From Elusimicrobia bacterium GWA2_51_34 (GTDB lineage Bacteria; Elusimicrobiota; Elusimicrobia; Elusimicrobiales; UBA9959): a DNA stretch of 64,000 bases. The position numbers and the translations under genes are program-made. Under the pieces are notes generated by a model, which was not told the DNA's origin, did not search any database, and was given only the letters and a program-made list of their open reading frames with translations. Positions 869 to 50,318 of the stretch are shown here, piece by piece. The stretch spans positions 1,104 to 65,103 of the forward strand of contig MGTS01000020.1 of NCBI GenBank assembly GCA_001799565.1, read 5' to 3'. The stretch's first letter is position 1, and each line of letters opens with the position of its first letter.

Positions 869-917
869 CAGTAACCAGTAACCAGTAACCAGTAACCAGT
901 AACCAGTAACCAGTAAC
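869..917. repeat. Perfect tandem heptamer (CAGTAAC)x7 (rplK-rplA spacer)
   Basis: There are seven exact copies, flanked by degenerate units. No complementary arm was found. Confidence 0.95.
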
Positions 918-5033: not shown

Positions 5034-5084
5034 AATGAAAAACCTCATTTCCGGCCGGCAAAAAAGGTAAAATATATCCAATCT

Positions 5085-5195
5085 GCTGGTAGGCAGGTAA
5101 GCTGGAGAGCTAGTATGCTTGTAGGCTGGTATGCTAGTATGCTTTCAGTGGAGTTCCTAAATTAGGCCTACAAGCATACTCGCCTACCAGCATAC
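5085..5195. repeat. Periodic-arm inverted repeat, GGTAGGC/AGTATGC type (upstream of infC)
   Basis: The left arm has seven 8-nt units (GCTGGTAG GCAGGTAA GCTGGAGA GCTAGTAT GCTTGTAG GCTGGTAT GCTAGTAT). The loop contains GGAGTTCC (5150-5157). The right arm is GCCTACAA GCATACTC GCCTACCA GCATAC. Confidence 0.9.
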
Positions 5196-7686: not shown

Positions 7687-10212
7687 ATGAAAATATTATA
7701 TTCCTGGCTTTCTGATTTTATCGCCGCGCCTTTAGCGCCGGAAGAGCTTCAGGCAAAACTTGGCCGCATAGGGCTGAAAACCGAATCCATTTCCAAAACC
7801 GGCGCCGCCTTTGAGGGCGTGACTGTGGGCCGGATTTTGAAAATTGAAAAACATCCGAACGCCGACAAGCTTTCGCTCTGCGACGTGGATTCCGGCTCAG
7901 GCGTAACGCGCGTTGTCTGCGGCGCTAAAAACATAGCCGAGGGGCAGAAAATACTTTTTGCCAGAGTGGGCGCGAAACTCGCCGGCGGTGAGCTTAAAAA
8001 GGCTAAAATACGCGGCGTGGAATCGGAAGGCATGATATGTTCGGCTCCGGAACTGGGGCTTCCGGGTGACGGGTCTGCTTCGCTTAACAACAGCTTCGCA
8101 GGTCCGCGTCCCTTCGAAGCTCCGGTCAAAAACGCCGGAGCGAAGGAGGACGGCTCTGGTATTTTAGTCCTGCCTGAAAATTCTCCTGTAGGCGCCGACG
8201 CCAAAACTCTTTTTGAAAAGCCAGACCTTCTGCTAGAAATAGAGATGCTGCCGAATCTCGCCTACTGCCTTTCCCATTACGCCGTGGCGCGAGAGCTTTG
8301 CGCTTTTTACAACCTGCCTCTTAAAAAACCTGTTATGCCGGAACTTACCCCACCACCTGCTTCGGGACCGAAAGGGCCCGACAAAGTCGGGCAAGCAGGT
8401 GGTGGGGTTAAAACCCCAGCTCCCGCGCCGGTAACCATAGAAGAGCCGGGGCTGTGCGCACGCTACTCGGGCATAGTAATAAAAAATATCCCGCCGGTTC
8501 CAACGCCGCCTCAGATGGCGGCACGCCTTGCCGCCATGGGCTCAAAGGCGAAGGGCAACCTGCTTATAGACGTTTCAAATTATGTGATGTACGAGCTTGG
8601 TCAGCCCGTTCACTGCTTTGACCTGAACAAGCTTTCCGGCCCCGAAGTAAAAGTGCGCCGGGCAAAACCCGGCGAAACCCTTAAAACTATTGACGGTAAA
8701 ACCCTGAAGCTTGACGAAGATATGCTTGTTATAGCCGACCGTGAAAAACCGGCGGCGTTGGCCGGCGTTATGGGGGGGGCGGATAGCGCGGTTTCGGACG
8801 CCACCACGGCCATACTTATAGAATCCGCCTGGTTTGAACCGTCCGCGGTGCGGCGCGCCTCAAAAAAAGCGGGTATTAAAAGCGAGTCCTCGTACCGCTT
8901 TGAGCGCGGTGTTGACCCCGAACTTCAGCTTTGCGCGGCGCTGCGCGTAGCCCAGTTGATACTTGCCGAAGTGCCTGGCGCTAGCCTTGAACAGATTTCA
9001 GATGTGAATCCGGTGAAATATGTGCCGGCTGCGGTTGAGGCCGACCCCGCGCGGATAAACGCCATTCTTGGCACGGAAATACCGGAACAGGATATTTTCG
9101 CCTGCCTTAAAGCGATCTCGCCCTCAATTAAAGATGAAAAGCCCTGGACTTTCTATCCCCCAAGCTACAGGCGCGACATTGAGTCCGCCTGGGACCTGGC
9201 CGAGGAAGTGGCGCGTTACAGCGGATATGACGTTATTCCCGTGCGCTCCAGTATGAAAATGATGAGCGCCTCCGTCACGCCCGCTTTTGAAGCTGCGGGG
9301 GAACTGCGCGCGCGTTTGTCCGCGCTGGGATTCTCTGAAGTATATAATTACGATTTCATTTCTCTTAAAGAATTGCAAAATTGCCTTTTAAACGAGGCGG
9401 CGGCGATTTCGCTTAAAAACCCTCTCTCTTCCGATTTCCAGTTCCTGCGGCCGTCGCTGGTGACGGGGCTTTTAAAAGCCCTTGATTACAATATCAACCG
9501 CGGCCGAAATTCCGCCGCCATTTTTGAGACCGGCACGGTTTATTCAAAGTCTGGTGCGCAGGGTAAGGAAGAGATATGCTGCTCCGGCCTTATGTTCGGC
9601 TCTTTTCCAGCGGAGCTGTTCTGGAAAGGCGGCGCTGACAGCGCTGATTTGTACCATCTTAAAGGCGTTATGGATTACGCATTTTCCGGTAAAAGCGGGT
9701 TCCGCTTTGAAAAACCGAAGTCAGCCCCCGCCTATTTCCAGCCGGGCGCCGTTCTTGAAATGAAACTTGGCGCGGGAACGGCGGGCTTTCTTGGCCTTCT
9801 AAACTCCACGGCTGTTGTAAACAGCGGCCTTAAGGACGTGAAAATTTATTATTTTGAAATACTGCTCTCCGCGCTCGCCCGGTCCCGGAAGGCCGACTTC
9901 TGGCAGAGAGTCTCCCAGGTGAAACCGGTGTCAGCCTACCCCGCCATCTGGCGTGATTTGTCGGTGGTTCTTGAAGACAAATACGAGTGGGCGGAACTTG
10001 AACGTGAGGTGGTAAAAACGCAGGATCTGGCCCGCGTGGAACTTATTGACGTTTATAAGGGCAAAAATATAGACGGGAACCTGCGCAGCGTCACCATCCG
10101 GTTCACTTTCTCTTCCATGGAAAAAACGCTTACCGACTCCGAAATAAACGGCCATATGGCCGCCATCCTTGAAAAGTTGTCCAAGAAATTTTCCGCCAAA
10201 CTCCGAAGTTAA
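7687..10212 (+). CDS. pheT: Phenylalanine--tRNA ligase beta subunit carrying two in-frame repeat insertions
   Basis: An 841-aa ORF after pheS. It has the N-terminal tRNA-binding domain 'KIEKHPNADKLSLCDVD..RGVESEGMICSAPELGL' and a C-terminal anticodon-binding-like end. Confidence 0.92.
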   Translation: MKILYSWLSDFIAAPLAPEELQAKLGRIGLKTESISKTGAAFEGVTVGRILKIEKHPNADKLSLCDVDSGSGVTRVVCGAKNIAEGQKILFARVGAKLAGGELKKAKIRGVESEGMICSAPELGLPGDGSASLNNSFAGPRPFEAPVKNAGAKEDGSGILVLPENSPVGADAKTLFEKPDLLLEIEMLPNLAYCLSHYAVARELCAFYNLPLKKPVMPELTPPPASGPKGPDKVGQAGGGVKTPAPAPVTIEEPGLCARYSGIVIKNIPPVPTPPQMAARLAAMGSKAKGNLLIDVSNYVMYELGQPVHCFDLNKLSGPEVKVRRAKPGETLKTIDGKTLKLDEDMLVIADREKPAALAGVMGGADSAVSDATTAILIESAWFEPSAVRRASKKAGIKSESSYRFERGVDPELQLCAALRVAQLILAEVPGASLEQISDVNPVKYVPAAVEADPARINAILGTEIPEQDIFACLKAISPSIKDEKPWTFYPPSYRRDIESAWDLAEEVARYSGYDVIPVRSSMKMMSASVTPAFEAAGELRARLSALGFSEVYNYDFISLKELQNCLLNEAAAISLKNPLSSDFQFLRPSLVTGLLKALDYNINRGRNSAAIFETGTVYSKSGAQGKEEICCSGLMFGSFPAELFWKGGADSADLYHLKGVMDYAFSGKSGFRFEKPKSAPAYFQPGAVLEMKLGAGTAGFLGLLNSTAVVNSGLKDVKIYYFEILLSALARSRKADFWQRVSQVKPVSAYPAIWRDLSVVLEDKYEWAELEREVVKTQDLARVELIDVYKGKNIDGNLRSVTIRFTFSSMEKTLTDSEINGHMAAILEKLSKKFSAKLRS
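8075..8153 (+). repeat. In-frame GC-rich palindromic element, family 1, inside pheT
   Basis: Positions 8075-8120 match recN 42410-42455 at 45 of 46 nt. The tail CGAAGGAGGACGG is also shared. The internal hairpin is CCTTCGAAGCTCCGG-TCAAAAACG-CCGGAGCGAAGG. It translates to 'ASLNNSFAGPRPFEAPVKNAGAKEDG' within the otherwise conserved 'SEGMICSAPELGL..GILVLP' region. Confidence 0.9.
8348..8407 (+). repeat. In-frame palindromic element, family 2 (60 nt), inside pheT
   Basis: CCCCACCACCTGCTT...AAGCAGGTGGTGGGG forms 15-bp terminal inverted repeats with the inner hairpin CCCGAC-AAA-GTCGGG. It translates to 'PPPASGPKGPDKVGQAGGGV'. Confidence 0.9.
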
Positions 10213-10266: not shown

Positions 10267-10373
10267 GGGATGGGGAGCGGGCCAGTCATGGGATTGCCCT
10301 TGCGCCGCGTAGGAAACCGTCCGCCTAAGGCGGACGCCCGCTGAAGTAGCGGGCGGTTTCCCTCCTCCCATCC
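10267..10373. repeat. GC-rich nested-hairpin element downstream of pheT
   Basis: The outer pairing is GGATGGG/CCCATCC and the closing pairing is GGAAAC/GTTTCC. These enclose two hairpins: TCCGCC-TAA-GGCGGA (10320-10334) and CGCCCGC-TGAAGTA-GCGGGCG (10335-10355). Confidence 0.75.
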
Positions 10374-11741: not shown

Positions 11742-12845
11742 TCAGCTTTTTTTGGCGGCGCGGAAGGTTTTCAGGGCTGTTTCAACTTTTTCCAGGAGTT
11801 CTTTTGAGTAAAGCTTGCCTACCAGGGACTGCCGGGCTTCAACCCCGGCGCATTCAAGCTCATCCATCCCCGCCGGCTCCGTAAATATCAGTTTTTTGCT
11901 TTTAAGTATCTTTACCGATTCTTCGTTATCCTTGCGGCTCTGCGCGGTAAGCGCCTTGAAATATTTTCCGCCCAGTTCCAGCATTGTTGTCTGGTCCGTT
12001 TTTGAAAGGGCGGTAAAAGCTTTTTTTGAAATTACCACGGCGCCTGCGGCGTTGGCAATGGGGGCGGCAAAAACATATTTCATGCGGGAGAACCACTGCA
12101 GGGCTATTACGGAAAGTGGGGAGCCGTAAACGCCGTTTATCATGCCGGTCTGCAATGAGGTCATAACATCCGTGATTGAAAGCGGTATGGGTTTTATTTT
12201 AAGCGCCGAGAAGGTGGCCTCCGCTATGGGGTCGCCTTCCCATATCCACATCTTAACCGCCTTCAGGTCGTCCAGTTTTGTTACCGGCGAGTTGGAAAAA
12301 ATATTCACACTGCCCACTTCCGCCCAGCCCAGCAGGATATAGCCGCGGGCCTCAAAGATCTTGCGGAAATCGCCGTCAAAAATTTTGTAAATATGGTCTA
12401 TTTCTTTCGCGTTCTTGAAAAGAAAAGGAGTGTCAAGGATGCGCGCTTCAGGGGCGATTTCGCCTATGCCCACTCCGGTAAAACCGGCGGCTTGCAGCTG
12501 GCCGAGGCGTATCTTCCTGACCACGTCTTTTTCGTCTCCGGATACGCCCCCGGGGTAAATTTTGAATTTCACGCGCCCCGCTGTTTTTGCCGTGGTTTCT
12601 TCGGTGAACTGCTTCATGGCTTTCATCCAGGTGGAACCGTCCGGCGCCAGCGTGGCGAATTTAACAACAGTCTGAGCGTGACAGAAAGGGGTTAGCGAAA
12701 TAGCGAATAGCGAAGTGGCAAGCAAGATGTCGGCGAAACGGTGGGCTGTCCAAAAACCTGGGTTTTTAATCTCAGCTTTTTTCCCAGAGCAGTCCCTAAT
12801 CGCTATTTTGCTATTCGCTATTCGCTTTCGTTTAAAAAAGATCAT
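11742..12845 (-). CDS. TRAP-type transporter periplasmic solute-binding protein (DctP family); start codon uncertain
   Basis: 'VVKFATLAPDGSTWMKAMKQFTEE..GRVKFKIYPGGVSGDEKDVVRKIRLGQLQAAGFTG' is DctP-like. The signal-peptide-like 'ILLATSLFAISLTPFCHA' is encoded by the CGAATAG repeat. The N-terminal roughly 45 codons of the track ORF run through repeat 12691-12828. Confidence 0.8.
   Translation of the reverse strand: MIFFKRKRIANSKIAIRDCSGKKAEIKNPGFWTAHRFADILLATSLFAISLTPFCHAQTVVKFATLAPDGSTWMKAMKQFTEETTAKTAGRVKFKIYPGGVSGDEKDVVRKIRLGQLQAAGFTGVGIGEIAPEARILDTPFLFKNAKEIDHIYKIFDGDFRKIFEARGYILLGWAEVGSVNIFSNSPVTKLDDLKAVKMWIWEGDPIAEATFSALKIKPIPLSITDVMTSLQTGMINGVYGSPLSVIALQWFSRMKYVFAAPIANAAGAVVISKKAFTALSKTDQTTMLELGGKYFKALTAQSRKDNEESVKILKSKKLIFTEPAGMDELECAGVEARQSLVGKLYSKELLEKVETALKTFRAAKKS
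12691..12828. repeat. CGAATAG-type periodic-arm inverted repeat lying inside the 5' end of the DctP-family ORF
   Basis: The left arm is GTTAGCGAAATAGCGAATAGCGAAG and the right arm is CTAATCGCTATTTTGCTATTCGCTATTCGCTTTC. The roughly 80-nt loop contains the mini-hairpin AAAAACCTGGGTTTTT. Confidence 0.85.
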
Positions 12846-13737
12846 CTTTTTTCTCCAGTAATTTTTTCGCTTTTATCTTTGCCACCTCGTCCGGCAGGCG
12901 GGTATTGCCGTCTTTCGGTTCCGCCGCCAGCACGTAATTCAACAGCGTGTCAAAAAGCTCCGCGTCCTGCGCCGCCACGGCGGCCATCTTCGCGTACATG
13001 AAGCGGTTCAATAAAAAATCCCCGCCTTCGCCTTTTAGCGCCAGTTCAAAGCGGGCCTTGGCCTTGTCTGGGTCCCCGCCCAGTATGCGCGGGCGTATGG
13101 AATAGTAAGCGCCCAGAATGCTTTGCGCCCCGTTGTAGTAGTAGCCGGGCTGAAGCGTCAGTATTTTTTCGGCCGCGGGTTCAATGCCGGGGAGTTCCGC
13201 CACGGCTTCGGGCTTATCCCTGTTGATATTTATGTAGGACGCCTTGCAGAAGGTCTGCCAGAAGAGCGGGGGGACATCCTTTTTTTTCGCGTTTTGGGTG
13301 GTAATCCCCTTCAGCGCGCGCGAAGCGTAAGTCTCGCCTTTAAGGTAGAAGATTGAGGCGCGCTCCGGGTTGTAGTCCTCCAGGAACATCAGGGCGTAGC
13401 CGCAGAAACCCTGCGCGGCGTTTATCAGCAGCTTGCGGTTGGCCGGGTCGTTTTGCAGCAGTATTTCCATCAACTGTAAATTGCCCGGCAGAGCCTCTTT
13501 AACATACTGCGTGTCGCTTTGGGCAAATACCGCCGGAAGGCCGCCGTCTATTATACCCGCCGTCTGGCGCACGGCCAGGCGGTTTAATGAGCACGCTGAA
13601 ATCAATGGAACGACAGCGAATAGCGAATAGCGAATAGCGAATAGCGAAGCGGCGAAGCAGCGAAGCAGCGGATGAATTCCGCTTCTGATTTTTAACCACT
13701 GACCACTGACCACTGACCACTGATTTATATTTTTCAC
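12832..13737 (-). CDS. Helical-repeat lipoprotein, probably a TatT-like (TPR-protein-associated TRAP, TPAT) accessory component
   Basis: It has the lipobox 'VVPLISAC' and is a helical 301-aa protein immediately upstream of the DctP-family gene, as in the Treponema tatT-tatP arrangement. The family assignment comes from context and memory, not from a search. The GTG start at 13737 is uncertain. Confidence 0.5.
   Translation of the reverse strand: MKNINQWSVVSGQWLKIRSGIHPLLRCFAASLFAIRYSLFAVVPLISACSLNRLAVRQTAGIIDGGLPAVFAQSDTQYVKEALPGNLQLMEILLQNDPANRKLLINAAQGFCGYALMFLEDYNPERASIFYLKGETYASRALKGITTQNAKKKDVPPLFWQTFCKASYININRDKPEAVAELPGIEPAAEKILTLQPGYYYNGAQSILGAYYSIRPRILGGDPDKAKARFELALKGEGGDFLLNRFMYAKMAAVAAQDAELFDTLLNYVLAAEPKDGNTRLPDEVAKIKAKKLLEKKDDLF
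13615..13723. repeat. Composite array (AGCGAAT)x4 + GCGAAGC units, a GAATTCC/TCTGATTTTTA core, then (CCACTGA)x4
   Basis: Two different perfect heptamer arrays flank the core, and they are not complementary to each other. The array lies in the 5' end of the TatT-like ORF. Confidence 0.9.
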
Positions 13738-15300: not shown

Positions 15301-15398
15301 GGCGAATAGAGAATAGCGAGTAGCGAATAAAAACAGAAAAGCTATAAAGATTCTTTTTCCATCCCTATTTCGCTATTCGCTAACCCCTATTCGCTAAT
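15301..15398. repeat. CGAATAG-type periodic-arm inverted repeat (ridA-malQ spacer)
   Basis: GGCGAATAGAGAATAGCGAGTAGCGAATA ... CCCTATTTCGCTATTCGCTAACCCCTATTCGCTAAT. Confidence 0.85.
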
Positions 15399-23194: not shown

Positions 23195-23223
23195 TTGAAA
23201 AAAAGTGTTTCCTCTGCTAGACT
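23195..23223 (+). promoter_or_regulatory. Candidate sigma70-type promoter of the P1-P5 cluster
   Basis: TTGAAA (23195-23200), a 17-nt spacer, then TAGACT (23218-23223). It lies just after the upstream terminator and about 150 nt before the P1 ATG. Confidence 0.4.
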
Positions 23224-23369
23224 GTAATCGCGGGATATCCCTTAGCTTTCAGTTTCCGGCGCCCCGCCCTTTTGCCGACAGAGTTAAACGGAATAGGGCA
23301 AAAGAGCGGGGCGGGAGAGGTGAAAGTAAGGCATTTTTCGTTTGTGCTGTTTTCGGGGGGGAAACTGAT

Positions 23370-24644: not shown

Positions 24645-24661
24645 AGGAAGGCGGTCTATAG

Positions 24662-24723
24662 CCCGGTGTTTAATACCCCGGTGTTTAATACCCCTTGACA
24701 AGTCAAGTGTTTTCTGCTATACC
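24662..24723 (+). promoter_or_regulatory. Tandem 15-mers plus a TTGACA-containing palindrome upstream of P2
   Basis: (CCCGGTGTTTAATAC)x2 lies at 24662-24691. The palindrome CTTGACAAGTCAAG (24693-24706) contains TTGACA, and a weak -10 TATACC follows after 17 nt. Confidence 0.3.
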
Positions 24724-24833
24724 ATAAGTGCGGTCGGTAACTTTGCCTTGAACATTTAAGTAAACTGTGTCAAGGAAAGTTTAGTGGTATTTATGCCTGC
24801 CGGGTTTAGAAGGGCCGTAAAAAGAGGGGGGTT

Positions 24834-35333: not shown

Positions 35334-35356
35334 TCAATCGGTATTTTAAGCGGTTT

Positions 35357-35391
35357 AAAACCCCGTCCGCCTTAGGCGGACGGGGTTTTTT
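35357..35391 (+). terminator. Rho-independent terminator after the giant gene P6
   Basis: AAAACCCCGTCCGCC-TTA-GGCGGACGGGGTTTTTT forms an 11-bp GC-rich stem (15 bp with the A/T extension) followed by T6. Confidence 0.85.
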
Positions 35392-35516
35392 GTGTTATTG
35401 CCGGGGCCGGAAAATCGTATAATGTAAATGAGATTGGATAAACAGCCACAAGACACAAGCGGGAGTTCCTGCGGCTGAATGTCGTTTCGCAAAGCACATG
35501 CGCGTAGGGGAGAAAA

Positions 35517-36478: not shown

Positions 36479-38362
36479 ATGCCTTACGAAAATCTTGCTT
36501 CCAAATACCGGCCCAAAAATCTTAATGAGGTTCTGGGTCAGGAAACTGTAAAGCGTACCCTGACCAATGCCGTTAAACTTGGCCGCATAGCCCCCTCTTA
36601 TGTTTTTTACGGGCCGCGTGGAACCGGCAAAACCACTATCGCCCGCATACTTGCCAAAACTTTAAACTGCCATAACCCGGCGGGCGCCGTGCCCTGCGAC
36701 AAGTGTGCCTCCTGCTTAGAAATAGCCGGGAGCAAATCCCTTGATGTGATAGAAATAGACGCCGCTTCCAATACGCAGGTGGATAAAGTGCGCAATGTGA
36801 TAATTGAGAATGTGGCTTTCGCTCCTTCCCGTGATAAATATAAGGTTTACATTCTGGACGAAGTGCACATGCTTACCACCCAGGCCTTCAACGCGCTTTT
36901 AAAGACTGTGGAAGAGCCGCCGGCTCATGTGGTATTTATAATGGCCACCACTGAACAGCATAAGGTGCCTGTTACCATACTTTCTCGTTCGCAGTGCTTC
37001 CGTTTCAGGCCGCTTTCGGAAGAAATAATGTTTGAGAGGCTGAAGGCAGTGGCTGAAAAGGAAAAAATAAAATCCGAGCCGGAAGCTCTTGCAATGATCG
37101 CCAGAGCCTCCTGCGGCTCTATGCGCGATGCTATGACGCTTCTTGACCGGGCAATTTCCTTCGGCAGGGGCGAGGTAAAGACGGAGGTTTTAAACGAACT
37201 TCTGGGCCATGCCGGTGAGGATATTATAAACTCACTCGCGCTCGCGCTCGTCAACAGGGACAGCGCCGCCCTTCACGCCGCTTTTGACAAGCTCAACTCC
37301 GAGGGCTACGACACTCTTACGGCGCTTCGCGACCTTCGCGATCTTTTAGCCGGAACTTTTTTTTATCTCCAGAAATTTTCCAGCGCTTCCACCGCTTTGG
37401 CCCGAGCCCTGCCGAAAGATCTGTCGGCTTCGGCACTCGCCAAGTTGTCTAGAAAAGTTAATTTAGCCGTTGAGGAAGTGAAATTTTCCGATTCTCTGGC
37501 CATAGCGGCGGAGATGGCGCTATTTACCCTTGTGGACACGCCGCAGGACATTGACGCTTTGGTCAGGCGGCTTGAGGGACTTGAACTGCGTCTCGCCCCA
37601 CCACCCGCTTCGGGACCGGCAGTGCCCGCCTCCGCCAAACAACTCGGCGGATCCGCCTCAGTCGGAAAAGTCGGGCAAGCAGGTGGTGGGGTCGGCGGAC
37701 AGGGCCGGCCTCCGGTCATAGAGCCTTGCGCCGCGCTTCCTCCCGTGCAAAAAAAAAATGATATTTTAGAGACACAGCCGGGAAAATCAGGGCCAGACGC
37801 CGGTGGTCAGAGGTTACAGGAAGAAGATTCAGGTATTTCTCTGCCTGTCACCTGCCACCTGCCGCCTGTCACCTCTGGTGCGGTCGCGCAAACCCCTCCT
37901 TCCGCTCTCTGGAAAAAACTGCTTGTACACATAGCGTCTAAAAAGCCGATGGTCTACAATATGCTGCTTTCCGTAAAAATTACTTTTGACAGTGAGACGA
38001 AGTGGCGCCTTAGTTTGCCGAATAAATTTGAAGCGGGTATGATAGAGAAGGCCCGGCCTGAGCTTGAGGAGGCTATGCAAAACCTCTCCGGCAGAAAAAT
38101 AGAGTTTGTTATAGAACATCCGGTTGCCGTTAAATCAGCCGTTCCTGTGCTTGAAGATTTATCCGCTCCACAGGTTTCTTCGGATGTTGAGCCGGAGGCA
38201 GAAGTACTAACCGGTCCCCAGGAGCCGGAAGGCCGCTGGGAAGACCTGCCGGAAGCCGGCGTTTCAGATATTGAACCTGAACTTAAAAAACTTTCAAAAG
38301 TGTTTCACGGCAGCAAGATAACAAAAGTAAGTAAAAAAACCGTGCAAGGGAAAAGCGAATAG
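36479..38362 (+). CDS. dnaX: DNA polymerase III subunit tau (gamma possibly produced from the A10 site)
   Basis: It contains 'YRPKNLNEVLGQE', the Walker A 'GPRGTGKTT', the Zn module 'CHNPAGAVPCDKCASC' and 'YILDEVHMLT'. The ORF is 627 aa. Confidence 0.92.
   Translation: MPYENLASKYRPKNLNEVLGQETVKRTLTNAVKLGRIAPSYVFYGPRGTGKTTIARILAKTLNCHNPAGAVPCDKCASCLEIAGSKSLDVIEIDAASNTQVDKVRNVIIENVAFAPSRDKYKVYILDEVHMLTTQAFNALLKTVEEPPAHVVFIMATTEQHKVPVTILSRSQCFRFRPLSEEIMFERLKAVAEKEKIKSEPEALAMIARASCGSMRDAMTLLDRAISFGRGEVKTEVLNELLGHAGEDIINSLALALVNRDSAALHAAFDKLNSEGYDTLTALRDLRDLLAGTFFYLQKFSSASTALARALPKDLSASALAKLSRKVNLAVEEVKFSDSLAIAAEMALFTLVDTPQDIDALVRRLEGLELRLAPPPASGPAVPASAKQLGGSASVGKVGQAGGGVGGQGRPPVIEPCAALPPVQKKNDILETQPGKSGPDAGGQRLQEEDSGISLPVTCHLPPVTSGAVAQTPPSALWKKLLVHIASKKPMVYNMLLSVKITFDSETKWRLSLPNKFEAGMIEKARPELEEAMQNLSGRKIEFVIEHPVAVKSAVPVLEDLSAPQVSSDVEPEAEVLTGPQEPEGRWEDLPEAGVSDIEPELKKLSKVFHGSKITKVSKKTVQGKSE
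37596..37691 (+). repeat. In-frame palindromic element, family 2 (96 nt), inside dnaX
   Basis: CCCCACCACCCGCTTCGGGACC...GTCGGGCAAGCAGGTGGTGGGG has the same termini as 8348-8407 with a longer interior. It translates to 'PPPASGPAVPASAKQLGGSASVGKVGQAGGGV'. Confidence 0.9.
37749..37758 (+). promoter_or_regulatory. A10 slippery run inside dnaX (candidate tau/gamma recoding site)
   Basis: The sequence is gtg caa aaa aaa aat gat at codons 423-427. The -1 frame reads AAA TGA (stop). The +1 frame reads ATG ATA TTT TAG (stop). Confidence 0.5.
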
Positions 38363-38420
38363 CGAATAGTGGCGGAAACTCTGATTGTGTTGGTTTTCCT
38401 GTGCTATTTCGCTATTCGCT
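38354..38420. repeat. CGAATAG-type hairpin spanning the dnaX stop to just before the recR start
   Basis: AGCGAATAGCGAATAGTG pairs with TGCTATTTCGCTATTCGCT (13 perfect bp plus more). The loop contains GGAAACTCTGA (38374-38384). Confidence 0.9.
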
Positions 38421-38427
38421 AACTCAT

Positions 38428-42006: not shown

Positions 42007-42089
42007 TCTCAGAGTCTCAGGGTCTGGGAGTCTAAGAGTCTGTGAAGCGGTGAGATGCTTCTCAGACTCTTAGGCTCTTGGACTCCTGA
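42005..42089 (+). repeat. AGTCTCAG-type periodic-arm hairpin (nadK-recN spacer)
   Basis: It is built of 8-nt units. Positions 42017-42047 pair with 42058-42089 through 25 Watson-Crick pairs, 4 G.U pairs, 1 mismatch and 1 bulge on the + strand. Confidence 0.9.
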
Positions 42090-42108
42090 ACTGCCTGCTT
42101 ACAGTGCT

Positions 42109-43878
42109 ATGCTGAAAAAACTTACTGTTAAAAATTTTGCGCTTATAGAAAAACTGGAGCTTGAGCCGGGGCCGGGGCTTAATGTGTTCACCGGAGAAAC
42201 AGGGGCCGGCAAGTCCATAATTATCTCCGCCCTCGGTTTTCTTTTGGGGGAGAGAGCGGGATCAGATGTGGTGCGCCCGGGGGCAGCAATGGCTGAGGTT
42301 TACGGCGAATTTTCCTCCGCCGGACTTAACCGCGAACTGCTTGAAAGTTTCGGTCTTGCGGGCGGGTCAGTCGTGGACAGCGCCATAGGCCCACGACAGG
42401 CCAGTGTCACTGCTTCGCTTAACAACAGCTTCGCAGGACCGCGTCCCTTCGAAGCCTTGGCGAAGGAGGACGGTTTTATTACGCTTAAGCGGCAGACTGA
42501 CTCTAATGGGCGTACAAGGTCTTTTATTAACGCCAGGCAGGTTCCGCTTTCCCGTGTTTCAGCTCTGGGTTCGGCGCTGGTGGATTTTCACGGGCAGAAT
42601 GAGCATCAGAGCCTGCTTAAAATGGAAGTGCAGCGCGCTCTTCTTGACCGCTATGGCCGCCTTGAAAAACAGGCTGATGCCGTGCGTGAGGCTTTCCTGG
42701 AAGCGCAGATACTGCGCGGCCGTCTTGAAGCGGTTTCAATGTCGGAACAGGAACGGGAGCGCCTGTTTGATCTTTACCGCTTCCAGCTTAAAGAAATAGA
42801 GGAAGCCGCGCTAAAACCCGGCCAGGAGGCCGAGCTTGAGGCGCTGTATCCCAGGTTGAAAAACGCCGAAAAGCTTTTCACTCTTTCAAACGCCGCCCAT
42901 GAGCTAGCGGCCGGGTCCGAGTGCGCAGCCAAGACTAACCTTGAAAAGGCTCTTGAAAAACTAAAGGCATTGGGCGAGCTCGACGAAGGCGCTCCGGCGC
43001 TTGCCGCCAGGCTTGAAAACACGCTTATTGAATTAGGCGATATTTCCGAGGAGCTTTATAAATACTCAAAAGGGCTTGATACCGACCCGGCCAGGCTTGA
43101 TGCCTGCCTCTCCCGGCTTGAACAGATATCCCTGCTTAAGAAAAAATACGGTCCAGATGAAAATTCCGTTATTGCCAAAGGGGCGGAACTTAAAAATAAA
43201 ATAGCCGGGCTTGAAGACCTCAGCCTTAACCGTGCCGACGCGGGCAAAGCTCTTGAAAAAAGCGAAGCGCTCCTTCTTAAGCTCGCGCGCTCGCTGCATA
43301 CCGCGCGGCGCGGCGCCGCGGTAAAGCTGTCCGCCCGTACAAAAGACGAAGCGGCGGAACTCGGATTTAAAGAGTTGCGTTTTGAGGTGGCAGTGGAAGC
43401 GGAGGAGGATAATATATCCTCATCCGGTTGTGATGCCGTGGAATATCTTTTTTCGGCTAACCCGGGTTATCCGCTGCGCCCTTTAAGATACACGGCTTCC
43501 GGCGGTGAAATGTCCCGTGTAATGCTTGCCCTTAAAACAGTGCTCGCCGCCGCCGACAGAATAGGGATACTTGTCTTTGACGAGGTGGATACGGGGGTAG
43601 GCGCGGTAACAGGGCGGCTGGTAGGACAAAAGCTTTGCCGGCTTTCCACTGGAAAACAGATCTTCTGCATAACCCATCTGCCGCAGGTGGCCGCTTTCGC
43701 GGAAAAGCATTTCATCGTTGAAAAGACTTCGCTTAATAAATCTTCCACCGTCATGACACACGCGCTTTCCGCCGCGGATAGAACCGCTGAAATAGCCCGT
43801 ATGCTTGGCGGGAAAAAGCAATTCACGGACCTCGGCCTCAAGCATGCCCGCGAGCTGCTGGCTGAATCCGGAATATAG
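42109..43878 (+). CDS. recN: DNA repair protein RecN carrying an in-frame repeat insertion
   Basis: It contains 'MLKKLTVKNFALIEKLELEPGPGLNVFTGETGAGKSI' (Walker A), an SMC-like coiled coil, the signature 'ASGGEMSRVMLALK' and 'LVFDEVDTGVG'. The ATG at 42109 was preferred because the track start at 42055 lies in a repeat loop. Confidence 0.9.
   Translation: MLKKLTVKNFALIEKLELEPGPGLNVFTGETGAGKSIIISALGFLLGERAGSDVVRPGAAMAEVYGEFSSAGLNRELLESFGLAGGSVVDSAIGPRQASVTASLNNSFAGPRPFEALAKEDGFITLKRQTDSNGRTRSFINARQVPLSRVSALGSALVDFHGQNEHQSLLKMEVQRALLDRYGRLEKQADAVREAFLEAQILRGRLEAVSMSEQERERLFDLYRFQLKEIEEAALKPGQEAELEALYPRLKNAEKLFTLSNAAHELAAGSECAAKTNLEKALEKLKALGELDEGAPALAARLENTLIELGDISEELYKYSKGLDTDPARLDACLSRLEQISLLKKKYGPDENSVIAKGAELKNKIAGLEDLSLNRADAGKALEKSEALLLKLARSLHTARRGAAVKLSARTKDEAAELGFKELRFEVAVEAEEDNISSSGCDAVEYLFSANPGYPLRPLRYTASGGEMSRVMLALKTVLAAADRIGILVFDEVDTGVGAVTGRLVGQKLCRLSTGKQIFCITHLPQVAAFAEKHFIVEKTSLNKSSTVMTHALSAADRTAEIARMLGGKKQFTDLGLKHARELLAESGI
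42397..42473 (+). repeat. In-frame GC-rich palindromic element, family 1 (short form), inside recN
   Basis: It shares the 46-mer and tail with pheT, and the inner hairpin is replaced by CTTGG. Its first 16 nt, CAGGCCAGTGTCACTG, are identical to noncoding 30985-31000. It translates to 'ASVTASLNNSFAGPRPFEALAKEDG'. Confidence 0.9.
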
Positions 43879-45546: not shown

Positions 45547-48219
45547 ATGAAATACTGGTTCTATTCCGAAGGCAATATTCTTGGCCCCTACGCCCCCGGC
45601 GAACTGCTTACTCTGCCGGCTTTCGCGCAGGACAGCCTTGTTTGCCTTGAAACTTCCACCGGAGATAAACCGGATGACTGGAAGCCGGCTTCCCAAGCGG
45701 AGGAAATAGAGGAAGCTTTAAGTGTGGGAGCCGGTAAATCAATTTCTTCAGGCTATGGCGGCATTGGGGATCTTTACGCGCTTGAAACCGGTTTTTCACA
45801 AGTGTCAACACCCGTCTATGAAAGCGCCTTTGAACAGGGCTATGCCTGTGAAAATCTGCTGGGCACAATAGACGATATTCTTAAGACCGGGGACGGCGGT
45901 TCTGCCGGCGAGCCTGAGATATCGGCCTATTCCGCTTCAGGTGGCCTGTCCGCAACTGAGTGGAAAAGTTCTTTTGACTATGACCAGATGGATAAATTTG
46001 ATGTTCCTCTCTCAAAAATACAGGAGGATCTGGAATTGGCCCGCTGGGAAAAAGACCTTTTGCAGGAAAAAGTAAGACTGAAGGACCTGGAGGACAGGAA
46101 ACAGCGTGATCGTATAGAGGAATTGGAAGTCAGGCTGAAGACGGTGCTGGACCAGGGCGGCGCCATGGAAAAAGAATTTGAGCAGTTGCGCCAATCCTCA
46201 GGAGGTTCCGTCCCAGAGGCCGCTGGCCCACAAAACGGCCGTCTGGAGGATTTAACGGAACAGGCCGAAACCGTAAGAAAGACGGAAGAAATTAACAAAG
46301 ATAATTCAGCTGAACTCTCGTGCGCTTCTTCGGCCGGGCCGAAAAATACGATTAACGAAAAAGACATTAGAGTTTTAAAGAACCTGAGGGTTTCCGATGA
46401 GGTAAAACTTGAAAGGCTTGGTGACAGCGATGACGCCGCGCAAGCTGGAAATAGCATTACCAGCCGCAGGCTGAAAAGCCTGGGCGGAAGCGCTAAAAGC
46501 CAGGAAGGCCCCGGCTTATTGGCGGAGGATGAGGCGACATCCAGCCAAACCGGGGGAGGGGCGCCCAGTATTGAACCGCCGCCGCTTGCAACTCCGGAGC
46601 CAAAGCCTGAGACATTGTCCGCATTAAACGGCGGAGCCCTTTCCGTGGATTTGCCGCAGGGGGACGCCGCACAGCGGCCTCCCTTGCTGCCGGCCACTAC
46701 CGGTAATTTGGAGTCTTTGCCTAAGTCGGACGGGGTGATTCAGGACTTTACAGCTGAAACTCCAAAAAGCGAAGAGCCTTTTAAAAAGACGCAGATCAAT
46801 TCAGGGTTGCCTGGCCATGGCGGATTTCCTGATCATGCAGGTTCCGTTTCCCAATCCTTTGGAGGTGCCGTCCCAGAGGCCTTTGGCCCACAAAACGGCC
46901 AATCCTTTGGAGGTGCCGTCCCAGAGGCCGCTGGCCCACAAAACGGCCAATCCTTTGGAGGAGGGGAAACCGCATTTGCGGTGTCCCCTCAGTCGCGGAC
47001 GACGCCAGGCCGGATGACAGCGCCGGAGGCCACCGGCACGCCAGAGTCAGAGGCCCGCGACAGGTCAGAGCCACAGCCGGTGGGAAAGGGTGTCCCAGAG
47101 GCCTCAGCCGCGGAGGCTATTCAGGATCAGGCACAAAAAGCGCCTGACTCCACCCCTGTCAAACAGCAGCCGGTTTCCGTTCCGGATAAAATGGCGCGCA
47201 TAACAATATCCGGCAATGGGCTGAAAACGGAGGTTGAATCCCAGGTCAAACCGGCCAGAAAAGGCGGAAGACTGGCATTTATCGCTATCATCATAATTTT
47301 TGGCGCCATAGCTGCGGGAGGGCTTGGTTTCTTCTTTCTTGGCGATGGCCTCAGCTTTTCAGAATTTTCAATGCTTGATTTCAATTCTTTAAAACGCGCC
47401 CAAAAAAGCATCATGCCTTCTCAGCTTGAACCGCAGGTTAGCGATAAAAACGCTGGCCAATCCACCGAAGTTGCCGTCGCGGGGGCCTCAGATGCGGACA
47501 GCGCCAGTGTCCCGCAACAGGTCAGCGTCTCCGGTCAGCAAAACGGTCTGCCGGCAGCGGAGAACGCGGTAAAAAGCGTTCCTGAAAACCAGTCCGGAGG
47601 GGCTCAAAGCCCTGCCACAGCTGCGGAGCAGTCGCCTGAAAAAACTTCCGCGCCGCTTGCCGTAAATGAGGGAGTTAAAACCGCGATTGAGACAGTTAAA
47701 AACTACAAATTATCCGGAGGCAGGGGCGCTATCGGCGGCTGGTTTGCCAATTCTTTTCTTTCTGGTTCTTCCGGCGCCGCGTCCGAAGAGTGGTCGGCAA
47801 CTCCGCTTCACGGAGATATTCTTGTTGTGCAGTATCGCCTGATAAGGCAAAAGCAGGACCCGCTTATTTATCAATTTGAAGTGGACGGCGCAAAAAACGA
47901 CATAATCCGCGGTATCAACAATAATGCCATAGAACTGCTGGATTTCTCCTCCGGAAAAACAGAACAGTCCGCGGTTTACGCTCCTAAACCGGAAGGTCGG
48001 GTAAGAAAAATATCGGCAAAAAAACTTTCCGCCAAAGCTAAACTGGTGAGAAAGCCAGGCAAGTCTAAAGGAGTCCCTTTACTCCCGCTGCCGGACGCGC
48101 CGGCGGCTGGCCTTAACAACGAAGATGAGGATTCAGCCGGTTTTGAAGATGCTCAATCGGATAACGGGGAAAAGGTGGAATACATAAAAGCTCAGGAATC
48201 CGACGAGGAGTTGTTCTAG
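45547..48219 (+). CDS. GYF_2 (DUF4339)-domain protein with coiled coil, internal repeats, one TM and a C-terminal domain
   Basis: The N-terminus 'MKYWFYSEGNILGPYAPGELLTLPAF' is GYF_2-like. It also has a coiled-coil 'LQEKVRLKDLEDRKQRDRIEELEVRLK', 'SFGGAVPEA(F/A)GPQNGQ' repeats and the TM 'LAFIAIIIIFGAIAAGGLGFFFLG'. It lies directly upstream of pilB. Confidence 0.65.
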   Translation: MKYWFYSEGNILGPYAPGELLTLPAFAQDSLVCLETSTGDKPDDWKPASQAEEIEEALSVGAGKSISSGYGGIGDLYALETGFSQVSTPVYESAFEQGYACENLLGTIDDILKTGDGGSAGEPEISAYSASGGLSATEWKSSFDYDQMDKFDVPLSKIQEDLELARWEKDLLQEKVRLKDLEDRKQRDRIEELEVRLKTVLDQGGAMEKEFEQLRQSSGGSVPEAAGPQNGRLEDLTEQAETVRKTEEINKDNSAELSCASSAGPKNTINEKDIRVLKNLRVSDEVKLERLGDSDDAAQAGNSITSRRLKSLGGSAKSQEGPGLLAEDEATSSQTGGGAPSIEPPPLATPEPKPETLSALNGGALSVDLPQGDAAQRPPLLPATTGNLESLPKSDGVIQDFTAETPKSEEPFKKTQINSGLPGHGGFPDHAGSVSQSFGGAVPEAFGPQNGQSFGGAVPEAAGPQNGQSFGGGETAFAVSPQSRTTPGRMTAPEATGTPESEARDRSEPQPVGKGVPEASAAEAIQDQAQKAPDSTPVKQQPVSVPDKMARITISGNGLKTEVESQVKPARKGGRLAFIAIIIIFGAIAAGGLGFFFLGDGLSFSEFSMLDFNSLKRAQKSIMPSQLEPQVSDKNAGQSTEVAVAGASDADSASVPQQVSVSGQQNGLPAAENAVKSVPENQSGGAQSPATAAEQSPEKTSAPLAVNEGVKTAIETVKNYKLSGGRGAIGGWFANSFLSGSSGAASEEWSATPLHGDILVVQYRLIRQKQDPLIYQFEVDGAKNDIIRGINNNAIELLDFSSGKTEQSAVYAPKPEGRVRKISAKKLSAKAKLVRKPGKSKGVPLLPLPDAPAAGLNNEDEDSAGFEDAQSDNGEKVEYIKAQESDEELF
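46853..46962 (+). repeat. 48-nt tandem repeat (2.3 copies) inside the GYF-domain gene, with dispersed copies at 46201-46250 and about 47085-47110
   Basis: The unit is AATCCTTTGGAGGTGCCGTCCCAGAGGCC(TTT/GCT)GGCCCACAAAACGGCC. It contains the small palindromes CCAGAGGCCTTTGG and TTGGCC..GGCCAA. The CAAAACGGCC module also occurs in noncoding 31005-31016. Confidence 0.9.
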
Positions 48220-50203: not shown

Positions 50204-50206
50204 CAA

Positions 50207-50295
50207 GGCCATAAGCCATAGGCCTTAGGCCATAAAAGGGAAGTGCTTTCTGCCTATGGCGTATGGCGGGCACGGTGCCCTTATGGCTTATGGCA
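50207..50295. repeat. GCCATAAG-type periodic-arm inverted repeat (pilB-pilT spacer)
   Basis: GGCCATAAGCCATAGGCCTTAGGCCATAAAA ... GCCTATGGCGTATGGCGGGCACGGTGCCCTTATGGCTTATGGCAG. Confidence 0.9.
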
Positions 50296-50318
50296 GACGG
50301 TTTTTTTAGGAGTTACTT

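What the first reader, a model, noticed from the sequence alone, without database searches (positions are those of the whole stretch)
8068..8157. Near-identical GC-rich palindromic element inserted in frame in two unrelated essential genes (pheT and recN)
Seen: pheT 8075-8120 and recN 42410-42455 are identical at 45 of 46 nt and share the tail CGAAGGAGGACGG. Both are read in the same frame, giving 'ASLNNSFAGPRPFEA'. In pheT the element interrupts the conserved tRNA-binding-domain segment 'SEGMICSAPELGL[..insert..]GILVLP'. The element folds as a hairpin (CCTTCGAAGCTCCGG/CCGGAGCGAAGG). The recN copy lacks the inner hairpin and carries an extra 5' module. Established precedent: Rickettsia palindromic elements (RPE) insert in frame into protein genes and are tolerated as surface loops. 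Inference: an RPE-like selfish or structured repeat family is active, or was recently active, in this genome.
Basis: partly seen in the sequence, partly recalled or inferred. Interest (0 to 1): 0.75.

Follow-up and report, generated by a model that had tools for sequence, protein, structure and literature searches.

The report
In-frame mini-transposons in essential Elusimicrobia genes
A groundwater Elusimicrobia bacterium carries several families of tiny (60-105 nt) palindromic mobile DNA elements inserted in frame into essential genes such as pheT, recN and dnaX, apparently read through as extra protein loops, much as Rickettsia palindromic elements are, but in an unrelated free-living phylum.

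Summary
Window 8075-8120 and 42410-42455 match at 45 of 46 nt (0 expected by chance), share the tail GCGAAGGAGGACGG, and are read in the same frame in pheT and recN.

The window is Elusimicrobia bacterium GWC2_51_8. The same PheT is encoded on 14 independently assembled contigs, so it is not a chimera. Orthologues 88% identical in DNA have empty sites, which gives exact boundaries.

- Element B begins GTCTGCTTCGC and ends GCGAAGGAGGA. These are imperfect terminal inverted repeats.
- It is 78 nt in pheT and 105 nt in recN, where it is fused to a second module, A.
- It is flanked by a 3-nt target-site duplication, CGG/CGG.
- Six more B copies in other metagenomes lie in an IspE-like kinase, ribosomal protein L19, a VWA/TPR protein, a beta-helix protein and a membrane protein. 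They use three reading frames and both orientations, and their duplications track the target (CAG/CAG, CGC/CGC).

A second family, P, has perfect 15-nt inverted ends and duplications TTA and TCG. It sits in frame in pheT (8348-8407) and dnaX (37596-37691). Module A has at least 11 copies in related genomes.

Best reading: stop-free non-autonomous transposons (MITE-like) that behave like RPEs. The transposase is unidentified. This is a new member of a known kind.

The parts
8073..8150 (+). Element B, long form (78 nt), inserted in frame in pheT. It adds PheT residues about 129-155 (SASLNNSFAGPRPFEAPVKNAGAKED).
   Evidence: Filled site versus empty site in relative L007. Aligned with 7 other B copies. 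Folds end to end as single-stranded DNA, dG -17.8 kcal/mol, z -2.5.
8070..8072 (+). Left copy of the 3-nt target-site duplication (CGG) of the pheT B element.
   Evidence: CGG is repeated at 8151-8153. In other B copies the flanking triplet changes together on both sides: CAG/CAG in L011 and CGC/CGC in L015.
8151..8153 (+). Right copy of the 3-nt target-site duplication (CGG) of the pheT B element.
   Evidence: Same as for the left copy.
8073..8083 (+). 5' terminal inverted repeat of B (GTCTGCTTCGC).
   Evidence: Pairs with 8140-8150 (GCGAAGGAGGA): 8/11 ungapped, or 10/12 with one gap if the C at 8151 is included. Conserved in the six B copies that are not fused to module A.
8140..8150 (+). 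3' terminal inverted repeat of B (GCGAAGGAGGA).
8121..8139 (+). Inner hairpin (TCCGG-TCAAAAACG-CCGGA) that distinguishes long B from short B, which has a 4-nt loop (CTTG, CTCG or CCTG) here.
   Evidence: Present in the pheT copy and in the L011 (IspE-like kinase) copy. Absent from recN, L012, L013, L014 and L015.
42366..42470 (+). Composite element A+B (105 nt) inserted in frame in recN. With its duplicated CGG it makes up the 36 extra residues GSVVDSAIGPRQASVTASLNNSFAGPRPFEALAKED.
   Evidence: The empty site GCGGGCGG|TTTTTT in relatives L008 and L010 corresponds to GCGGGCGG|GTCAG...GGAGGACGG|TTTTAT here. See also the protein alignment.
42363..42365 (+). Left copy of the target-site duplication (CGG) of the recN insertion.
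   Evidence: The right copy is at 42471-42473.
42471..42473 (+). Right copy of the target-site duplication (CGG) of the recN insertion.
42367..42410 (+). Module A core (TCAGTCGTGG-ACAGCGCCATAGGC-CCACGAC-AGGCCAGTGTCAC): a hairpin with a 7-bp stem.
   Evidence: 42/45 identical to the copy in PheT of relative L007. 10 copies in Elusimicrobia UBA9634 and 1 in bin-1076. The stem shows two compensatory pair changes among copies.
42411..42470 (+). Short-form B part of the recN composite, with loop CTTG instead of the inner hairpin.
8348..8407 (+). Family P palindromic element (60 nt, perfect 15-nt terminal inverted repeats CCCCACCACCTGCTT/AAGCAGGTGGTGGGG). This is a second in-frame insertion in pheT; with its duplicated TTA it adds TPPPASGPKGPDKVGQAGGGV. 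The target-site duplication TTA lies at 8345-8347 and 8408-8410.
   Evidence: Absent from relatives. TIR/TSD scan. Fold z -6.85.
37596..37691 (+). Family P element, long form (96 nt), in frame in dnaX (ORF 36479-38362). The target-site duplication TCG lies at 37593-37595 and 37692-37694.
   Evidence: The host is DnaX by Pfam.
30915..31030 (+). Intergenic copy of module A. It is interrupted by a nested 12-bp-stem hairpin (30949-30985) flanked by a repeated CAGGCC, and it continues into a CAAAACGGCC module.
46190..47544 (+). Stretch of the 890-aa ORF that has no Pfam match. It carries diverged in-frame copies of related modules at 46190-46240, 46851-46961 (48 nt x 2.3), 47007-47063 and 47456-47544.

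Best explanation
The 46-mer is part of a short, GC-rich, non-autonomous DNA transposon of the MITE type, called B here.

**Anatomy of B**
- It has imperfect terminal inverted repeats: GTCTGCTTCGC at the 5' end and GCGAAGGAGGA at the 3' end.
- The whole element can fold back on itself.
- Its length is a multiple of three: 63 nt (short), 78 nt (with an inner hairpin), or 105 nt (fused to module A).
- Insertion duplicates 3 nt of the target, so an insertion never shifts the reading frame.
- Four of the six frames of B have no stop codon.

**Consequence.** Many insertions into genes are therefore survivable. The ones we see sit in indel-tolerant loops of housekeeping proteins, where they are presumably translated as 21-36 extra, probably disordered, residues.

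**Other families.** At least two further families behave the same way in this clade:
- P has perfect 15-nt inverted repeats and a 3-nt duplication.
- A is a conserved 45-nt hairpin module.
Modules nest or abut to form composites.

**Shown:** element boundaries, inverted ends, target duplication, empty and filled sites, multiple hosts, frames and orientations, and presence in several related species.

**Inferred:** mobilisation in trans by a transposase that makes 3-nt staggered cuts, translation of the inserts, and near-neutral 'selfish' status.
For: - **Real repeat.** 45/46 nt identity, with 0 matches in shuffles.
- **Empty versus filled sites.** Relatives about 88% identical in DNA have empty sites at recN and at both pheT positions.
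- **Target duplication tracks the target.** The flanking triplets are CGG/CGG (pheT, recN, L013, L014), CAG/CAG (L011) and CGC/CGC (L015), so 6/6 are perfect. Family P has TTA/TTA and TCG/TCG next to perfect 15-nt inverted repeats.
- **The ends pair.** In the minimum-free-energy folds z is -2.5 to -3.1 for B and -6.85 for P.
- **Independent insertions.** Eight B copies lie in seven genes: PheT, RecN, a GHMP kinase (IspE-like), L19 (tandem pair), a VWA/TPR protein, a beta-helix protein and a 262-aa membrane protein. They use forward frames a and b and a reverse frame, which gives unrelated peptides.
- **Module A is widespread and conserved.** It is found in intergenic DNA and in LepB, MltA and PheT of relatives. 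It is about 93% conserved against UBA9634, whose syntenic genes are only 71-75% identical to the window.
- **Inserts look like loops.** They are the lowest-confidence coil segments of the AF2 models, flanked by confident strands: PheT 126-157 and 222-246, RecN 86-120 in P0121 numbering. Relatives carry other indels at or close to the RecN site and the third PheT site.
- **Not an artefact.** 14 contigs and several MAGs carry the same protein.
Against: - No transposase with matching ends was found. None of the larger window ORFs has a transposase domain. No pair of B ends lies 0.5-3 kb apart in the roughly 200 kb held.
- The inverted repeats of B are short and imperfect (8/11).
- At 60-78 nt the elements are at the very bottom of the published MITE size range of 50-800 bp (PMC11602168).
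- Only two B copies are known in this genome itself, and the whole genome could not be scanned.
- The exact 23-specified-base core of B is absent from 185,579 GTDB species representatives.
- Translation is untested.
- The left flank resembles the element's own 3' end (GAC in 3 of 6 cases). This could reflect target preference, or some homology-dependent process.
Confidence: 0.62

Rival explanations
1. The elements are REP- or PATE-like single-strand hairpin elements. A Y1/HUH transposase (RAYT or IS200/IS605 TnpA) would move them by recognising the hairpins, not the inverted ends.
For: - The modules are small GC-rich hairpins.
- Module A keeps its 7-bp stem through two compensatory pair changes: GTCGCGG/CCGCGAC, GTCGTGG/CCACGAC and GCCGCGG/CCGCGGC.
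- Modules cluster and nest like BIMEs.
- Many modules share GTC...GAC ends.
Against: - B and P are flanked by 3-nt duplications that differ from site to site and match the empty target. By my own knowledge, Y1 transposition makes no duplication and inserts 3' of a fixed tetra- or pentanucleotide.
- There is no conserved GT(A/G)G head.
- The elements are mostly inside genes.
- No Y1_Tnp domain was found among the window ORFs. The rest of the genome was not seen.
Confidence: 0.14
2. There is no dedicated transposition. The palindromes spread by template switching, microhomology-mediated repair or gene conversion between existing copies. The short direct repeats would then be junction microhomologies.
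For: - The left flank often resembles the element's 3' end beyond 3 nt (GACGG/GACGG in pheT and L014, GACGC/GACGC in L015).
- The two window copies share the species-specific variant AACAGC although they are of different subtypes. This suggests homogenisation within the genome.
- There is a tandem duplicate in L19.
Against: - In L011 and L015 the terminal triplet departs from the family consensus and matches the local target. This is what target duplication predicts, not copying from a donor.
- The same 3-nt rule holds for the unrelated family P, which has perfect 15-nt inverted ends.
- Boundaries are identical in six independent B insertions.
Confidence: 0.1
3. The shared sequence is kept because it is useful. 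It could be a peptide module (for example an interaction or localisation tag), or an mRNA or DNA structure with a regulatory role that was recruited into several genes.
For: - Module A is far better conserved between genera than the host genes: about 93% against 71-75%.
- The inserts are fixed in all MAGs of the species.
Against: - The same DNA is read in three frames and both orientations, giving unrelated peptides.
- Copies also lie in intergenic DNA.
- AF2 gives no structure for the inserts.
- A full HMMER scan of 1.84 billion representative proteins found no such peptide family, only chance TPR_12 look-alikes.
- No Rfam family matches.
- Close relatives function without the inserts.
Confidence: 0.08
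4. The finding is an assembly or binning artefact: a repeat wrongly spliced into two genes.
For: The source is a metagenome-assembled genome, and repeats are hard for assemblers.
Against: - The identical 841-aa PheT is encoded on 14 contigs from different assemblers and samples.
- Several MAGs carry both inserts.
- The insertions are exactly in frame, with clean target duplications.
Confidence: 0.01

Closest known systems
Rickettsia palindromic elements (RPEs; Ogata et al. 2000, as summarised in PMC10969869 and PMC3184786)
   Same: - Both are palindromic repeats that come in several families.
- Both insert in frame into unrelated housekeeping genes.
- Both are read through as extra peptide segments that seem compatible with the host fold.
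- Copies also occur between genes.
   Different: - There is no evidence of homology; RPE sequences were not compared here.
- RPEs are about 105-150 bp and belong to obligate intracellular Alphaproteobacteria. These elements are 60-105 nt and sit in free-living groundwater Elusimicrobia.
- These elements show clear terminal inverted repeats and a 3-nt target duplication.
- The same element is used in three reading frames.
Prokaryotic MITEs (for example Nezha, Correia, ERIC/RU, Coxiella QMITE1 and QMITE2; PMC3184786, PMC5896051, PMC10969869, PMC11602168)
   Same: - They have terminal inverted repeats, short target-site duplications and no transposase gene.
- They fold into stem-loops and occur as dispersed copies.
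- Empty and filled sites are seen among close relatives.
- QMITE1 also has 2-3-nt direct repeats of variable sequence.
- Occasional in-frame fusions are known.
   Different: - These elements are much shorter than most MITEs.
- About 90% of conserved bacterial MITEs are intergenic (PMC11602168), whereas all 8 B copies and at least 2 of the 3 P copies found are inside genes (the third lies at the gltX start).
- Element length is a multiple of three, which together with the 3-nt duplication makes every insertion frame-neutral.
- The parent IS is unknown.
REP/BIME elements with RAYT transposases
   Same: - Both are short GC-rich imperfect palindromes.
- Both are clustered and mosaic in arrangement.
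- Stems are kept by compensatory changes.
   Different: - REPs are extragenic, carry a conserved GTAG-type head and give no target duplication (my own knowledge).
- B and P have target duplications and lie within genes.

Membership tests
MITE (non-autonomous DNA transposon) | Terminal inverted repeats | tested here: met
   Family P has perfect 15/15 repeats, CCCCACCACCTGCTT/AAGCAGGTGGTGGGG. B has GTCTGCTTCGC against the reverse complement of GCGAAGGAGGA, 8/11 ungapped, or 10/12 with one gap if the next C is counted. The ends pair in the folds.
MITE (non-autonomous DNA transposon) | Target-site duplication flanking the element, variable between copies | tested here: met
   B has CGG, CAG or CGC on both sides in 6/6 insertions. 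The empty recN site in L008 and L010 holds a single CGG. P has TTA/TTA and TCG/TCG, and TCA/CCA in L008.
MITE (non-autonomous DNA transposon) | Small, with no transposase gene | tested here: met
   The elements are 60-105 nt. The published prokaryotic range is 50-800 bp (PMC11602168).
MITE (non-autonomous DNA transposon) | Multiple dispersed copies; empty and filled sites in close relatives | tested here: met
   8 B copies lie in 7 genes, there are 3 P copies, and module A has at least 13 copies across at least 3 genomes. Empty sites are seen. The copy number within this genome is unknown.
MITE (non-autonomous DNA transposon) | A related autonomous IS or transposase with matching ends | tested here: inconclusive
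   No transposase domain was found in the window ORFs. No paired ends lie at IS-like spacing in the held loci.
Rickettsia palindromic elements (RPE) | In-frame insertion of a palindromic repeat into unrelated protein genes | tested here: met
   Hosts include PheT (three sites in two species), RecN, DnaX, L19, an IspE-like kinase, LepB and MltA.
Rickettsia palindromic elements (RPE) | Sequence homology to an RPE family, size about 105-150 bp, Rickettsia host | tested here: not met
   The host is Elusimicrobia and the size is 60-105 nt. Direct sequence comparison with RPEs was not done. This is therefore an analogue and not a member.
Rickettsia palindromic elements (RPE) | Insert falls in a surface loop compatible with the host fold | tested here: inconclusive
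   The inserts are low-confidence coil between confident strands in AF2 models of only moderate quality (mean pLDDT 65). The sites have no counterpart in solved PheRS and RecN structures. No experimental structure exists.
REP/BIME mobilised by RAYT | Extragenic 20-40-nt palindrome with a conserved GT(A/G)G head and no target duplication | tested here: not met
   B and P lie within genes, start with GTCT or CCCC, and have 3-nt duplications.
REP/BIME mobilised by RAYT | A RAYT (Y1 transposase) gene flanked by the repeats | not testable with these tools
   Only the 64-kb window and short loci were available. None was seen in the window.

The most novel reading that the evidence does not exclude
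These could be a previously undescribed superfamily of ultra-small, nestable hairpin transposons specific to a clade of groundwater Elusimicrobia.

- Their design makes them adapted to live inside coding sequence: length 3n, a 3-nt target duplication and stop-free frames.
- They would be mobilised by a transposase not yet linked to any MITE.
- They would be a steady source of new loops in essential proteins.
- The cross-genus conservation of module A (about 93% against about 73% for host genes) would then reflect either a conserved recognition site for that enzyme or a domesticated function.
Probability: 0.3. Interest if true: 0.7.

Novelty: new member of a known kind. Interest (0 to 1): 0.56.

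Why it matters
In-frame 'selfish' palindromes in essential genes have been regarded mainly as a curiosity of Rickettsia.

Finding the same behaviour in a free-living, uncultivated phylum has several consequences.
- With clean inverted ends and target duplications, it suggests a general route by which tiny transposons persist in gene-dense genomes and add new peptide loops to conserved proteins.
- It offers a tractable data set for asking which protein positions tolerate about 20-35-residue insertions: many MAGs, empty and filled sites, several families.
- It has a practical side for annotation. RecN of this species is labelled 'hypothetical protein' at NCBI, and gene callers may misplace starts near such elements, as at the gltX start in L008.

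Tried and rejected
- **Peptide search, 5.8-billion-protein index.** No candidate shared enough 5-residue words with the 42-aa recN insert, so the search gave nothing.
- **Full HMMER scan of 1.84 billion representatives with the same peptide.** It returned three proteins; the two I inspected are TPR_12-type repeat proteins (ALGPxHPDVATSLNNLA). I judge these chance look-alikes because the match spans the junction of two independent DNA modules.
- **Scan of GTDB genomes for the B core.** 0 hits, so this genome is not among the species representatives and B is rare.
- **Viral contig scans for B, A and P.** 0 hits, so there is no sign of a phage origin.
- **Rfam on the whole window.** No known RNA family.
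- **Search for an autonomous IS.** No B ends at IS-like spacing and no transposase domains in the window.
- **Composite around module A in UBA9634 (L019, L027, L030).** It looked like a possible IS end, but the similarity extends only about 120-130 nt.
- **Y1/IS200-type insertion.** Considered and set aside, because the terminal triplet varies together with the target.
- **A conserved ancestral loop.** Considered and set aside, because relatives have empty sites.
- **Is the element better conserved than its host genes?** Not shown for the nearest relative: 42/45 in module A against 88% in genes. It is clear only against the more distant UBA9634.
Full report

Yes. The 46-mer CTGCTTCGCTTAACAACAGCTTCGCAGGTCCGCGTCCCTTCGAAGC occurs at 8075-8120 and, with one mismatch (T to A), at 42410-42455. 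It occurs nowhere else in the window, and none of 100 dinucleotide-preserving shuffles gave a match. The tail GCGAAGGAGGACGG is found exactly twice, at 8140-8153 and 42460-42473.

The two sites lie in ORF 7687-10212 and ORF 42055-43878. Pfam shows the first has the full PheT domain set and the second is a RecN/SMC head protein. Both are read in the frame that gives SASLNNSFAGPRPFEA. The pheT copy has an extra inner hairpin (TCCGG...CCGGA, 8121-8139). The recN copy has an extra 5' module.

**2. Source, and the possibility of an artefact**

The PheT protein is 100% identical to that of 'Elusimicrobia bacterium GWC2_51_8'. The same 841-aa sequence is encoded on 14 contigs from NCBI and ENA assemblies of different samples. 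Proteins from several MAGs of the species (GWC2_51_8, GWA2_51_34, GWF2_52_66 and TPA reassemblies) carry both inserts. An assembly chimera is excluded for practical purposes.

**3. Insertion or ancestral sequence?**

*PheT.* Solved PheRS beta chains have nothing opposite PheT residues 126-152. In P. aeruginosa 4p71 the alignment runs from ...ELQI straight to SEENAGLLELP. The three closest orthologues (86-91% aligned identity) read ELGLEG-DSSGILVLP, as do all more distant Elusimicrobia.

*RecN.* The D. radiodurans structure has about 15 residues where the window protein has about 62. Orthologues at 88% identity read GLAG-GFFTLKRQ.

*DNA boundaries.*
- recN: relatives L008 and L010 have GCGGGCGG|TTTTTT. 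The window has GCGGGCGG|GTCAGTCG...GGAGGACGG|TTTTAT, an insertion of 108 nt.
- pheT: relative L007 has GAGGGCGACAGCTCGGGC. The window has GGTGACGG|GTCTGCTTCGC...GGAGGACGG|CTCTGG, an insertion of 81 nt.

Host genes of these relatives are about 88% identical to the window in DNA. Both insertions therefore postdate a fairly recent split.

**4. Anatomy of element B**

A scan of JGI metagenomes for the core GCTTCGCAGGNCCGCGTCCCTTCG returned five loci with six more copies. Aligned with the window copies, six of the eight start with GTCTGCTT(C/T)GC; the two fused to module-A sequence (recN, L012) begin differently. All eight end with GCGAAG(G/A)AGGA. These ends are imperfect inverted repeats: 8/11 ungapped, or 10/12 with one gap. 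They pair in the minimum-free-energy folds of the whole element, with z from -2.5 to -3.1.

The three nucleotides after the element repeat the three before it:

| Host | Flanking triplets |
|---|---|
| pheT, recN, L013, L014 | CGG/CGG |
| L011 | CAG/CAG |
| L015 | CGC/CGC |

The triplet departs from the majority exactly where the local flank does, and the empty recN site holds a single CGG. This is a genuine 3-nt target-site duplication.

Element lengths are 63 nt (short), 78 nt (with the inner hairpin; pheT and L011) and 105 nt (A+B; recN). Length plus duplication is always a multiple of three. Four of the six reading frames of B are free of stops.

**5. Hosts and reading frames**

| Locus | Host | Frame used |
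|---|---|---|
| L011 | GHMP kinase, IspE-like | reverse strand: SSFAPALSPGPSKGRGPAKLLLSKAD |
| L012 | 262-aa membrane protein | forward frame b: SLLRLTTASQDRVPSKPWRRRT |
| L013 | VWA/TPR protein | forward frame b |
| L014 | ribosomal protein L19, two tandem 66-nt units in a C-terminal extension | forward frame a |
| L015 | 1712-aa beta-helix protein | forward frame a |

One DNA element thus gives three unrelated peptides. This argues for a DNA-level mobile element and against a selected peptide module.

**6. More families in the same window**

*Family P.*
- PheT has a second lineage-specific insert of 21 residues (TPPPASGPKGPDKVGQAGGGV), absent from relatives.
- Its DNA (8348-8407) is a 60-nt palindrome with perfect 15-nt inverted ends, fold z -6.85, flanked by TTA/TTA.
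- A 96-nt version sits in frame in dnaX (37596-37691), flanked by TCG/TCG.
- A third copy lies, inverted, at the very start of gltX in relative L008.

*Module A.* This is the 5' part of the recN insert.
- It recurs in intergenic DNA at about 30915-31000. There it is interrupted by a nested hairpin flanked by a repeated CAGGCC.
- It is present, 42/45 identical, inside a different PheT site of relative L007.
- An exact-pattern scan of GTDB genomes gave 10 copies in Elusimicrobia UBA9634 and one in a second Elusimicrobia MAG, plus 7 scattered hits in unrelated phyla, about what chance predicts.
- The UBA9634 copies are partly intergenic and partly inside genes, including signal peptidase LepB and MltA.
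- The 7-bp stem of A shows two compensatory pair changes and one uncompensated change among copies.
- UBA9634 is only 71-75% identical to the window in syntenic genes, yet A is about 93% conserved. That points to constraint on the DNA sequence, or to recent spread.

*The 890-aa ORF.* The ORF at 45547-48219 has no Pfam match and carries several diverged in-frame copies of related modules.

**7. Where in the proteins?**

- AF2 models built from the orthologue alignments are of moderate quality (mean pLDDT about 65).
- The inserts are their lowest-confidence coil segments, lying between confident strands: PheT 126-157 and 222-246, and RecN 86-120 in P0121 numbering.
- Relatives carry unrelated indels at or close to the RecN site and the third PheT site, so these are indel-tolerant loops.
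- This fits the idea of a tolerated surface loop, but it does not prove it.

**8. Mechanism**

*Best reading.* The signatures are those by which prokaryotic MITEs are defined and shown to have been mobile (PMC3184786):
- terminal inverted repeats;
- a short target duplication that varies with the site;
- no coding capacity;
- dispersed copies;
- empty and filled sites.

Coxiella QMITE1 likewise has 2-3-nt direct repeats of variable sequence (PMC5896051). I therefore read B and P as non-autonomous DNA transposons moved in trans by a transposase that makes 3-nt staggered cuts.

*The enzyme is unknown.* By my own knowledge, 3-bp duplications occur in IS3, some IS5 subgroups and IS30, but I could not test this. 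No transposase domain was found among the larger window ORFs, and no IS-sized pair of B ends was found in the sequence held.

*Rivals.*
- A Y1/HUH (RAYT or IS200-type) mechanism would suit the hairpins. It does not explain target duplications that change together with the flank.
- Template switching or gene conversion could explain the flank similarity beyond 3 nt, and the window-specific variant shared by the two B subtypes. It does not explain why the terminal triplet follows the target.
- A functional peptide or RNA is unlikely. The reasons are multi-frame use, intergenic copies, no Rfam hit and no such peptide family among 1.84 billion representative proteins.

**9. Comparison with what is known**

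In behaviour this is the RPE phenomenon. The MITE review (PMC10969869) describes ten RPE families with 44 insertions in R. conorii, nearly half of them in frame in ORFs. Membership in the RPE families is not supported: the phylum differs, the size is 60-105 nt against about 105-150, and no homology was shown. The elements meet the structural definition of MITEs except for the unidentified parent IS.

They are unusual in four ways:
- they sit at the bottom of the size range (50-800 bp; PMC11602168);
- they are almost always found inside genes, whereas about 90% of conserved bacterial MITEs are intergenic (PMC11602168);
- they are frame-neutral by construction (3n length plus a 3-nt duplication);
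- they are modular and can nest.

Full-text searches found no description of such elements in Elusimicrobia. Absence from that library is not proof of novelty.

**10. Verdict**

- It is a new member, in fact several families, of a known kind.
- Interest is moderate to good. It broadens a phenomenon thought to be nearly specific to Rickettsia, and it gives clean transposition signatures. No new mechanism is demonstrated.

Three limits remain: the per-genome copy number, the transposase and translation of the inserts are all untested.

Noticed in passing
window 869-917, 1736-1788, 5084-5195, 12796-12830, 13615-13723, 15302-15396, 38350-38421, 42005-42073, 50208-50294, 59278-59360, 60951-61063: Many intergenic spacers hold tandem arrays of degenerate heptamers or octamers: CAGTAAC x7, GAATTCT, GCTAGTAT, AGCGAAT, ACCACTG, AGTCTCAG, GCCATAA and others. 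They are often arranged as inverted pairs that form long hairpins, for example a 20-bp stem at 59278-59360. Similar heptamers flank module A in UBA9634 and bin-1076 (L016, L022, L026). They recall the cyanobacterial STRR heptamer repeats (my own knowledge). Their role (terminators, other mobile repeats) is unknown.
   Followed up: partly
window 37596-37691 (dnaX ORF 36479-38362): A 96-nt family P palindrome lies in frame in the DnaX linker, adding about 33 residues (APPPASGPAVPASAKQLGGSASVGKVGQAGGGV). It is flanked by TCG/TCG and carries a further internal hairpin compared with the 60-nt pheT copy.
   Followed up: partly
L008 3495-3555 (relative of the window species; start of gltX): A family P element lies in inverted orientation directly after a possible ATG of gltX. 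It would give a 21-residue N-terminal extension (APPPACPTLAGPFGPEAGGGV). The gene caller placed the start after the element. The window's gltX lacks it.
   Followed up: partly
window 45547-48219: An 890-aa ORF has no Pfam match. It is low in complexity, has one predicted membrane segment, and is packed with repeated 48-51-nt modules (QSFGGAVPEAAGPQNG, 46190-46240 and 46851-46961) and diverged module A copies (47007-47063, 47456-47544). It may be a heavily colonised, non-essential gene.
   Followed up: partly
window 23205-36365: Seven consecutive large ORFs (283-1290 aa) have no Pfam hit at E<=1e-5. Several are Gly/Ala/Ser-rich with an N-terminal hydrophobic segment. Type IV pilus/T2SS genes (PilB-, PilT- and PilC-like, 48434-52698) lie about 12 kb further downstream in the window.
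   Followed up: no
window 35357-35389 and 10317-10336; L008 1244-1264; L012 3340-3356; L013 3037-3055: A terminator-like hairpin CCGTCCGCC-NNN-GGCGGACGG recurs at several loci and species. In L012 it lies directly against a B element. It shares the GTC...GAC stem ends of modules A and B.
   Followed up: no
L014 1520-1651 (ribosomal protein L19 gene of a related population): Two perfect tandem 66-nt B units sit in the C-terminal extension of L19. Either the element inserted into its own duplicated target (GACGG) or the unit was duplicated by slippage.
   Followed up: no
PheT relatives P0020, P0086, P0008 and RecN relative P0126 (alignments A1, A2): Other Elusimicrobia orthologues carry their own lineage-specific inserts. 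Examples are VGETACAVSTCGLIPRKGC at the same PheT site as L007's module A insert, and PGEDLTLPKEGKN close to the RecN insertion site. Their DNA was not examined for palindromes.
   Followed up: no
recN, window 42055-43878: NCBI annotates this RecN as 'hypothetical protein' in all MAGs of the species, while insert-free relatives are named RecN. The insert may push the protein below naming thresholds.
   Followed up: no
junction of modules A and B in RecN (window 42385-42440): The peptide AIGPRQASVTASLNNSFA resembles the TPR_12 consensus ALGPxHPDVATSLNNLA. This produced the only hits in the 1.84-billion-protein scan. I judge it coincidental.
   Followed up: yes
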